Assembly: GCF_016026235.1 (NCBI RefSeq)
Contig: NZ_CP065614.1
Source: Escherichia coli
GTDB lineage: Bacteria > Pseudomonadota > Gammaproteobacteria > Enterobacterales > Enterobacteriaceae
DNA: 64,000 nt
Strand: one strand, 5' to 3'
This document shows, piece after piece, positions 62,801-64,000 of the stretch. How positions within the stretch are numbered: the first letter of the stretch is position 1; every line of letters begins with the position of its first letter. Position numbers: made by a program.

Positions 62801-64000
62801 TGCCGCAGGCGACCGCGTAAACCGTCAGTTCGTGGCAGAACGACCTGACCAGCTGTGGGTGGCTGATTTTACTTACGTCAGCACATGGCAGGGCTTCGTC
62901 TATGTGGCGTTCATCATTGATGTGTTTGCCGGATGCATCGTGGGGTGGCGGGTCTCATCGTCCATGGAAACGACATTCGTGCTGGATGCACTGGAGCAGG
63001 CGTTATGGGCCCGTCGACCGTCCGGCACGGTCCATCACAGTGATAAAGGTTCTCAGTATGTATCGCTGGCCTACACACAGCGGCTTAAGGAAGCCGGATT
63101 ACTGGCATCAACAGGAAGTACAGGCGACTCGTATGACAACGCGATGGCGGAGAGCATCAATGGTCTTTACAAAGCGGAGGTAATACACCGTAAGAGCTGG
63201 AAAAACCGTGCAGAAGTGGAACTGGCCACACTCACGTGGGTGGACTGGTATAACAATCGACGATTGCTGGAAAGGCTGGGCCATACTCCTCCGGCAGAAG
63301 CAGAAAAAGCTTATTATGCTTCCATCGGAAACGATGATCTGGCAGCCTGAGTTCACAGATAAAACACTCTCCAGGAAACCCGGGGCGGTTCAGTTGCTGA
63401 ACTGCTGGAACCGCTGTATGACATCCTGCGCCAGTATGTGCTGATGCCCGGTAAAGTCCATGCCGATGATATCCCCGTTCCGGTCCAGGAGCCGGGCAGC
63501 GGTAAAACAAGGACTGCCCGGCTGTGGGTCTACGTTCGTGATGACCGTAACGCCGGTTCGGAAATTGCAGCATAAGTTATCCATGCTCTGAGGTGGGTGG
63601 AGGTGGGCCCTCCGGTCAGGGTTTACAGGAGCACTGACCAAACGACCCGGTGCTGCTTCATTCTAAGGAATGAGGTGGTGAGCGACTCGGGAAAAGGCAG
63701 AGATCTACTGTCACGTGGGGTTCGGGAAGCTGAACGAAAGTAAACTGTCCGATGAAGCATCGAAATCTTAGATGATGTCAAAATGGGGCCGTACAGCCGT
63801 CCCCTGATAAGCGCAGAAGACACCTGCTTACTGACTGCGCGGCATCCGGTGTGAAGGCAGCAGGATCCCGGGCCAGACCATCTCAGGGAACGTGAGAACC
63901 TGTTTCCGGCACGTATCGGGAAACAGGGGCGGACCCATTCGTAGTAGTGATGAAAGATCTGTAATGGGTCTGGAGCGAAGGGATGGGGATCACATTCATT

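What the first reader, a model, noticed from the sequence alone, without database searches (positions are those of the whole stretch)
63558..64000. Structured non-coding segment inserted into an IS66-family tnpC at the window edge (candidate retroelement RNA)
Homology between the tnpC fragment (63395..63557) and the full-length TnpC stops abruptly after ...RDDRNAGS. The following 440 bp have no long ORF on either strand but many short inverted repeats. Bacterial group II introns frequently home into IS elements and begin with several hundred nt of structured RNA before the reverse-transcriptase ORF; a retron-like ncRNA or another IS end is an alternative. The feature continues beyond the window.
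Basis: inference. Interest (0 to 1): 0.5.

Follow-up and report, generated by a model that had tools for sequence, protein, structure and literature searches.

The report
Truncated E.c.I3 group II intron relic
The segment is the front part of a well-catalogued bacterial group II intron (E.c.I3) sitting in an IS66-family insertion sequence on the Shigella/EIEC invasion plasmid; it has lost its first 36 bases and its upstream exon, so it is an ordinary, already described dead retroelement fragment.

Summary
TnpC homology stops at 63562-63565, not 63557. What follows is structured non-coding RNA sequence.

Rfam's group II domain-I model RF01999 hits 63599-63715 at 91.9 bits (gathering score 36). 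Window 63562-64000 is 100% identical to nt 37-475 of full-length 1824-nt introns in other E. coli.

In a plasmid identical over the last 621 bases of the window (NZ_CP011417), the downstream sequence holds:
- an RT/maturase ORF (TIGR04416, 374 bits);
- domains V and VI (RF00029, 57 bits);
- the last ~60 codons of tnpC.

The copy is defective. It lacks the GUGUG 5' splice site, 36 nt of domain I and the 5' exon. These went with a 558-bp deletion whose ends share a 4-nt microhomology (AAAT). An extra C also shifts the frame of the RT gene.

This copy is already published as E.c.I3-tr2: class D, homing site IS679, "1789 bp fragment… lacks 37 bp" (Leclercq & Cordaux 2012, Table S2). It is not novel and is of low interest.

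The parts
62083..63392 (+). IS629 (IS3 family, 1310 bp) that cuts off the tnpC fragment on its left. It is context, not part of the intron.
   Evidence: Terminal inverted repeats TGAACCGCCCCGGG... were read at both ends. There are four near-identical 1310-bp copies in the window. OrfA/OrfB ORFs are at 62137-62463 and 62460-63350. An ALIL frameshift pseudoknot lies at 62418-62534. The name IS629 rests on my own knowledge of the OrfA sequence and the 1310-bp length.
63393..63565 (+). Internal fragment of an IS679-like (IS66-family) tnpC, about 57 codons ending ...ARLWVYVRDDRNAGSE. The last 4 nt (63562-63565, AAAT) are shared with the intron.
   Evidence: blastn gives 98.9% identity over window 63387-63565 to L010 tnpC 1804-1982.
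63562..63565 (+). Deletion junction: a 4-nt microhomology AAAT present both in tnpC (..GGTTCGGAAAT|GCCTCC..) and in the intron (..ATGTGAAAAT|TGCAGC..).
   Evidence: Three-way comparison of the window, the intact tnpC and the intact intron. The blastn ranges overlap.
63562..64000 (+). E.c.I3 group II intron RNA, nt 37-475 of 1824. This is most of domain I and the following domains up to just before the IEP start codon (intron nt 512). It is cut by the window end.
   Evidence: 100% identical to nt 37-475 of the full-length copy in L010. It is 98.8% identical to the E. coli 536 copy over the whole retained 1789 nt.
63599..63715 (+). Domain I substructure matched by Rfam RF01999 (two hairpins plus a three-way junction).
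   Evidence: cmscan gives 91.9 bits, gathering score 36, model positions 1-118 of 118.
63870..63876 (+). Candidate EBS1 (GGGCCAG, intron nt 345-351), complementary to 5'-exon positions -8 to -2 (CTGGCTC) of the intact homing site. This is inference only.
   Evidence: A complementarity scan of the 5' exon against intron nt 1-520 found 7 bp with one G-U pair. It is not supported by a structure model or covariation.

Best explanation
Window 63562-64000 is the 5' portion of a defective copy of the bacterial class D group II intron E.c.I3. The intact element is 1824 nt and starts with GUGUG. It carries a 410-aa reverse transcriptase/maturase without an endonuclease domain in domain IV. It retrohomes into one site of IS679-like (IS66-family) tnpC genes, between ...AACTGGCTCT and TCGCGGGTTCC..., inside the codons for the motif RKNWLFAGSD. 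In an ancestor of the Shigella/EIEC invasion plasmids, the intron occupied this site. A 558-bp deletion between two AAAT tetranucleotides then removed 518-522 nt of the 5' exon and the first 36-40 nt of the intron. IS629 later truncated the remaining tnpC on the left. The copy has lost the 5' splice site, the base of domain I and the IBS1/IBS2 exon sequences, and it has a +1 frameshift (C6 instead of C5) at codon 27 of the RT gene. It can therefore neither splice nor move, and it is a passively inherited relic. Shown here: the identity, the boundaries, the missing parts and the frameshift. Inferred: the order of events, the deletion mechanism and the loss of activity. The confidence given is for the identification as truncated E.c.I3; the post-insertion-deletion mechanism specifically is about 0.6 against 0.3 for abortive retrohoming.
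For: - Rfam group II domain-I model RF01999 scores 91.9 bits at 63599-63715.
- Plasmid NZ_CP011417 (L001) is identical to window 63380-64000 and to the window back to 62665. It continues with an ltrA ORF, domain V/VI (RF00029, 57.1 bits, L001 7894-7971), a bulged A 7 nt before the ...GAC 3' end at L001 7971, and then tnpC codons ...AGSDSDDEHAAVLYSLIGTCRLNNVEPEKW...SSQ*.
- The IEP matches TIGR04416 at 373.6 bits in the pINV copy and 390.2 bits in the intact copy (cutoff 300). Pfam finds RVT_1 and GIIM and no nuclease domain.
- Six full-length copies (L005-L010, including E. coli 536) begin GTGTGTCACGAAGGAGTACTTATGGCAACAATGTGA|AAATTGCAGC... and sit in tnpC at one and the same site. The pINV copy starts at nt 37.
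- The intact copies are 1824 nt with a 410-aa ORF. The pINV copy has C6 where they have C5, and its longest ORF is 392 aa from an internal ATG.
- The published catalogue lists 'E.c.I3-tr2, class D, 1789 bp fragment 98% similar to E.c.I3-1, lacks 37 bp and 900 bp of the host IS679 in 5'' on plasmids of Sf301, SbCDC3083, Ss046, S. dysenteriae and Sb227. Its coordinates in NC_007607 (29397-31222) have the same 3' end as my hit H40. The retained length I measured independently is also 1789 nt.
- E.c.I3 is stated to target IS679.
Against: - Nothing contradicts the identification.
- The folding-energy z-score of the window part alone is only -1.68. Structure is supported by the covariance model and by homology, not by thermodynamics.
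- Everything beyond 64000 is taken from a different record (NZ_CP011417). That record matches the window exactly from 62665 to 64000 but differs from it in a small stretch near 62658-62664, so identity of the unseen downstream part is assumed, not shown.
- Loss of splicing and mobility is inferred from the missing parts and was not tested.
- The paper says 37 bp and about 900 bp are missing. I count 36-40 nt of intron and 518-522 nt of tnpC up to the junction; the rest of tnpC was lost to IS629.
Confidence: 0.97

Rival explanations
1. The element is the same, but the truncation arose during insertion rather than afterwards, by abortive retrohoming. In this reading the intron RNA reverse-spliced into the tnpC site. 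cDNA synthesis from the 3' end stopped at intron nt 37. The incomplete cDNA end was then joined to an upstream AAAT microhomology, deleting 518 nt of the 5' exon, in the way LINE elements acquire 5' truncations.
For: The 3' junction is exactly the canonical homing junction while only the 5' side is damaged. Other copies are 5'-truncated at different points with intact 3' ends: L003 and L004 start at about nt 20, and chromosomal copies start at nt 632 or 948. There is a 4-nt microhomology at the junction. The IEP lacks an endonuclease domain, so priming depends on host replication (established knowledge for class D introns such as RmInt1).
Against: A simple microhomology-mediated deletion after a normal insertion leaves an identical footprint and needs no special event. 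5' truncations are also expected from random deletions and IS insertions in this IS-dense plasmid. No test here separates the two.
Confidence: 0.3
2. The segment is a retron msr/msd non-coding RNA with its RT downstream.
For: An RT gene follows a structured non-coding stretch. Retron RT models give weak partial hits, for example retron St85 at 69 bits.
Against: The Rfam search at E <= 1 returns only group II intron families, with no retron RNA. The retron RT hits are far below their cutoffs (69 against 235 bits), while TIGR04416 passes (374 against 300). A GIIM maturase domain, domain V and domain VI are present.
Confidence: 0.01
3. The segment is the end of another insertion sequence, or tnpC continuing after a small indel. 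These were the first reader's refutation scenarios.
For: The region is a mosaic of IS elements: four IS629 copies plus IS66, IS110, IS91 and IS4 fragments.
Against: No transposase ORF follows. The next ORF is an RT/maturase. tnpC resumes only 1.8 kb later, at a point about 173 codons downstream of where it stopped. The 439 nt are 100% identical to the interior of a group II intron.
Confidence: 0.01

Closest known systems
E.c.I3-tr2 (truncated E.c.I3 copy on Shigella virulence plasmids; Leclercq & Cordaux 2012, PLoS One 7:e52268, Table S2/S3)
   Same: It is the same locus. The retained length is the same (1789 nt), the 5' loss is the same (about 37 nt plus upstream IS679 sequence) and the plasmid family is the same. 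The 3'-end coordinate in NC_007607 coincides. The junction-spanning 621-nt query is found at >=99.7% identity in S. flexneri, S. boydii, S. dysenteriae and EIEC plasmids.
   Different: There is essentially no difference. The window comes from an EIEC/Shigella pINV most similar to pCFSAN029787_01, a strain not in the 2012 survey. I count 36-40 missing intron nt and describe the AAAT microhomology and the C6 frameshift, which the table does not mention.
Full-length E.c.I3 (e.g. E. coli 536 PAI I copy = E.c.I3-2b; E. coli ED1a copies), bacterial class D
   Same: 98.8% nucleotide identity over the retained 1789 nt. The homing site in IS679-like tnpC is the same. The domain V/VI and the IEP architecture (RVT_1 + GIIM, no endonuclease) are the same.
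   Different: The full-length copies have the GTGTG 5' end, 36 more nt of domain I, an intact 5' exon and an open 410-aa IEP (C5 run). The window copy lacks all four.
RmInt1 of Sinorhizobium meliloti (model class D intron)
   Same: It has the same class assignment in the literature. Its IEP is likewise short and endonuclease-less, and it likewise homes into an insertion sequence (own knowledge and the abstract of PMC4615759). Short megablast matches in the domain V region hit Sinorhizobium ltrA introns.
   Different: It has only distant sequence similarity and a different target IS. RmInt1 is an experimentally active element, whereas this copy is defective.

Membership tests
Group II intron (RNA) | Domain I tertiary/secondary core recognisable by a covariance model | tested here: met
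   RF01999 scores 91.9 bits (gathering score 36) at window 63599-63715.
Group II intron (RNA) | 5' terminal GUGYG splice-site consensus | tested here: not met
   It is absent from the window copy, which starts at intron nt 37. It is present as GTGTG in six full-length relatives. This shows truncation of a member, not non-membership.
Group II intron (RNA) | Catalytic domain V, and domain VI with a bulged branch-point A 7-8 nt from a 3' AY end | tested here: met
   RF00029 scores 57.1 bits (gathering score 40) at L001 7894-7971. The bulged A is at L001 7965 and the intron ends ...GAC at 7971. This lies outside the window, in a record identical to window 62665-64000.
Group II intron (mobile, ORF-containing) | RT/maturase ORF in domain IV | tested here: met
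   TIGR04416 scores 373.6 bits (cutoff 300), and RVT_1 and GIIM are found. The ORF is N-terminally disrupted by a +1 frameshift in this copy.
E.c.I3 (Zimmerly-database name; bacterial class D) | >90% nucleotide identity to the reference E.c.I3 (the naming rule used by Leclercq & Cordaux) | tested here: met
   98.8% identity to the E. coli 536 copy, which the paper names E.c.I3-2b. The paper itself reports 98%.
E.c.I3 (Zimmerly-database name; bacterial class D) | Insertion at the specific homing site in IS679/IS66-family tnpC | tested here: met
   The 3' junction ...CTCGAC|TCGCGGGTTCCGACAGCG is the same as in all full-length copies. The 5' junction is destroyed by the deletion. The IS679 target is stated.
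E.c.I3 (Zimmerly-database name; bacterial class D) | IEP without DNA-binding/endonuclease domain (class D trait) | tested here: met
   The 410-aa IEP ends 25 residues after GIIM, and there is no HNH or other nuclease hit. The class D label is taken from Table S2. Class-specific RNA features were not examined.
Retron | msr/msd RNA and a retron-type RT passing family cutoffs | tested here: not met
   There is no retron RNA family at E <= 1. Retron RT models score 23-69 bits against cutoffs of 235-600.

The most novel reading that the evidence does not exclude
The truncated intron might not be inert. It has been kept at >=99.5% identity across S. flexneri, S. boydii, S. dysenteriae and EIEC invasion plasmids, and it still carries a 376-392-aa RT/maturase ORF readable from an internal start. 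It could have been co-opted, for example as a free-standing reverse transcriptase or as a structured RNA expressed from the plasmid.
Probability: 0.03. Interest if true: 0.5.

Novelty: already known. Interest (0 to 1): 0.08.

Why it matters
It matters little beyond correct annotation. The case shows that a tool-less reading can recognise a group II intron from the pattern 'homology stops, then structured non-coding sequence'. It also gives base-level anatomy of one decayed retroelement: a 4-nt microhomology junction, 36 nt lost, and a frameshifted RT. Such fragments have been used as evidence that group II introns in Enterobacteriales are usually inactivated before they can proliferate (Leclercq & Cordaux 2012). 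In practice, automated annotation calls the downstream ORF an intact 'ltrA', although the element lacks its 5' splice site and the ORF lacks its true N-terminus.

Tried and rejected
- Retron reading: rejected, because there are no retron RNA hits and the retron RT models score far below their cutoffs.
- Reading 63558/63562 as the genuine 5' end of an intron with a non-canonical start: rejected once copies in other contexts showed 36 further shared nt starting with GTGTG, directly after a contiguous tnpC exon.
- Simple insertion between adjacent tnpC codons: rejected, because the two tnpC flanks are about 173 codons apart in intact tnpC.
- Thermodynamic folding as evidence of structure: uninformative (z = -1.68).
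- EBS/IBS assignment by complementarity scan: it gave a plausible EBS1 (GGGCCAG with CTGGCTC). The best EBS2-like match (TTTCCGGC, nt 378-385) lies inside a strong local hairpin and is probably not EBS2. I do not rely on either.
- Searching the window for the other published E.c.I3 fragments (tr3, tr4): none found.
- I did not use the large protein or metagenome searches, because the annotated E. coli and plasmid collections and the literature answered the question.

Full report
**What is in the sequence**

The last 2 kb of the window read, left to right:
- the 3' end of ipaH4.5 (ORF 60361-62085);
- a complete 1310-bp IS629 (62083-63392), one of four copies in the window;
- a 173-nt internal piece of an IS66-family tnpC (63393-63565);
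- 439 nt with no ORF longer than 66 aa on either strand, running to the window end.

The actual break is slightly further right. Identity to an intact IS679-like tnpC (L010, 98.9%) runs to 63565. Identity to the downstream element begins at 63562. The four bases AAAT are shared by both.

**Is it more than chance?**

Folding energy alone is weak evidence: z = -1.68, and 4 of 100 shuffles fold as well. The Rfam covariance model for a group II intron domain-I substructure (RF01999, group-II-D1D4-2) is decisive. It matches 63599-63715 on the + strand over its full length, at 91.9 bits against a gathering score of 36. E is 3.5e-19 locally and 2e-17 over the whole 64-kb window. It is the only non-IS RNA hit in the window.

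**Extending beyond the window**

A megablast of 63380-64000 finds 100% matches in EIEC plasmids and 99.7-99.8% matches in S. flexneri, S. boydii and S. dysenteriae virulence plasmids. The last 24 kb of the window is 99.7% identical to pCFSAN029787_01 (NZ_CP011417), so the window comes from a Shigella/EIEC invasion plasmid.

In that record (locus L001; window x = L001 x - 57379), the sequence continues as follows:
- An ORF annotated ltrA, 'group II intron reverse transcriptase/maturase'.
- A match to RF00029, domain V plus VI, at L001 7894-7971 with 57.1 bits.
- A domain VI with a bulged A seven nt before a ...GAC terminus at L001 7971.
- Directly after that, the last ~60 codons of tnpC (...AGSDSDDEHAAVLYSLIGTCRLNNVEPEKWLRYVIEHIQDWPANRVRDLLPWKVDLSSQ*).

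The ORF passes NCBIfam TIGR04416 (373.6 bits, cutoff 300). The intact version has Pfam RVT_1 and GIIM domains and nothing after them, so it has no endonuclease domain. Retron and defence-RT models score far below their cutoffs.

**The copy is 5'-truncated**

Related copies at about 98% identity exist on other E. coli plasmids and chromosomes. Six of them (L005-L010, including the E. coli 536 chromosome) share 36 additional nucleotides upstream of the point where the window copy begins: GTGTGTCACGAAGGAGTACTTATGGCAACAATGTGA|AAATTGCAGC... In these copies that sequence is preceded by tnpC sequence ...GGCCGGAAAAACTGGCTCT.

Joining that exon to the sequence after the intron (TCGCGGGTTCC...) restores the TnpC reading frame through ...GRKNWLFAGSDS.... 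The intact element therefore:
- is 1824 nt long;
- begins with the canonical GUGUG;
- encodes a 410-aa IEP starting at nt 512;
- occupies one specific site in IS679-like tnpC.

Window 63562-64000 is 100% identical to nt 37-475 of such a copy. The whole retained 1789 nt is 98.8% identical to the E. coli 536 copy.

**The left junction**

In intact tnpC, the sequence GGTTCGGAAAT is followed by GCCTCC... and lies 518 nt upstream of the homing site. In the intact intron, GTGAAAAT is followed by TGCAGC... The window reads GGTTCGGAAAT-TGCAGC.

So 558 bp are missing between two AAAT tetranucleotides: 518-522 nt of the 5' exon and 36-40 nt of intron. The upstream tnpC fragment stops at about TnpC codon 327 of the L010 translation, and tnpC resumes at about codon 500. 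The intron is therefore not 'inserted' at 63558; that junction is secondary.

A microhomology-mediated deletion after a normal retrohoming event is the simplest account. An abortive retrohoming event, with incomplete cDNA joined at an upstream microhomology, would leave the same footprint. That rival is mildly supported by other copies that are 5'-truncated at different points while keeping perfect 3' junctions. I cannot separate the two.

**Further decay**

The pINV copy has a run of six C where the intact copies have five. This shifts the frame after codon 26 of the IEP. The longest remaining ORF starts at an internal ATG and is 392 aa; PGAP aa. The copy has no 5' splice site, no base of domain I, no IBS1/IBS2 exon sequence and a damaged RT N-terminus. 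It should therefore be unable to splice or move. This is inference from the established requirements of group II introns and was not tested.

**Comparison with what is known**

Leclercq & Cordaux (2012; PMC3522654) surveyed group II introns in Enterobacteriales. They state that E.c.I3 targets IS679, that E. coli 536 carries a single E.c.I3 in PAI I, and that E.c.I3 fragments sit on the Shigella virulence plasmid.

Their Table S2 lists 'E.c.I3-tr2', class D, on the plasmids of Sf301, SbCDC3083, Ss046, S. dysenteriae and Sb227. The entry reads: '1789 bp fragment 98% similar to the E. coli E.c.I3-1. Lacks 37 bp and 900 bp of the host IS679 in 5''. Three points tie that entry to this locus:
- Their full-length E.c.I3 coordinates span 1824 bp.
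- Their coordinates for NC_007607 end at 29397, exactly the intron 3' end in my hit to that record.
- My independently measured retained length is 1789 nt.

The feature is thus the already catalogued E.c.I3-tr2.

**Verdict**

The object is an ordinary, defective, previously described group II intron fragment. What this analysis adds is minor: the AAAT microhomology at the deletion junction, the C6 frameshift, and the note that automated annotation presents the ORF as an intact ltrA.

Noticed in passing
window 62083-62085 / 60361-62085: The stop codon of ipaH4.5 (TGA, 62083-62085) is formed by the first three bases of the IS629 left inverted repeat (TGAACCGCC...). The protein ends ...QLTDEVLA. 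From memory, IpaH paralogues continue for about 13 more residues (LRLSENGSQLHHS), so IS629 appears to have clipped the C-terminus and supplied the stop.
   Followed up: no
window 13130-14425, 24049-25354, 46544-47853, 62083-63392: There are four IS629 copies (97.6-100% identical, all on the + strand). Each has an ALIL programmed-frameshift pseudoknot hit (RF01497, about 120 bits). Same-orientation repeats like these are substrates for deletions on this plasmid.
   Followed up: partly
window 2990-3753 (-), 56437-56543 (-), 39415-39451 (+): Further IS66-family tnpC-related stretches are present. One is a distant one (64% nt identity over 783 nt), one is a 107-nt piece (73%), and one is a 37-nt piece matching the 3' end region of the IS679-like tnpC at 97%. 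None carries intron sequence.
   Followed up: partly
L001 6504-6842 (-) (= window 63883-64000 and beyond): RefSeq annotates a 112-aa 'hypothetical protein' (WP_227804374.1) antisense to the intron RNA and overlapping the start of ltrA. It lies inside structured intron sequence and is most likely a spurious gene call.
   Followed up: no
L003/L004 ~4001 and one search hits H43-H45 (S. sonnei): There are independent 5' truncations of the same intron. E. coli plasmids pZ1322HEC0003-2 and pZ1323PEC0013-3 start at about nt 20, and their 3' exon is cut after 29 nt. S. sonnei pINV copies start 57 nt further in than the window copy.
   Followed up: partly
L005 and L007 (ETEC-type plasmids), intron nt ~560-600 and ~1270: These otherwise full-length E.c.I3 copies share a 36-nt in-frame-looking deletion in the RT0 region, a 3-nt deletion and the C6 run. 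They seem to be a distinct decayed sub-lineage.
   Followed up: no
L001 8180-8665 (-), just beyond the IS66 right end: A truncated IS110-family transposase gene abuts the 3' end of the IS679-like element. parA/parB-like partition genes follow. The relic sits next to the plasmid partition region.
   Followed up: no
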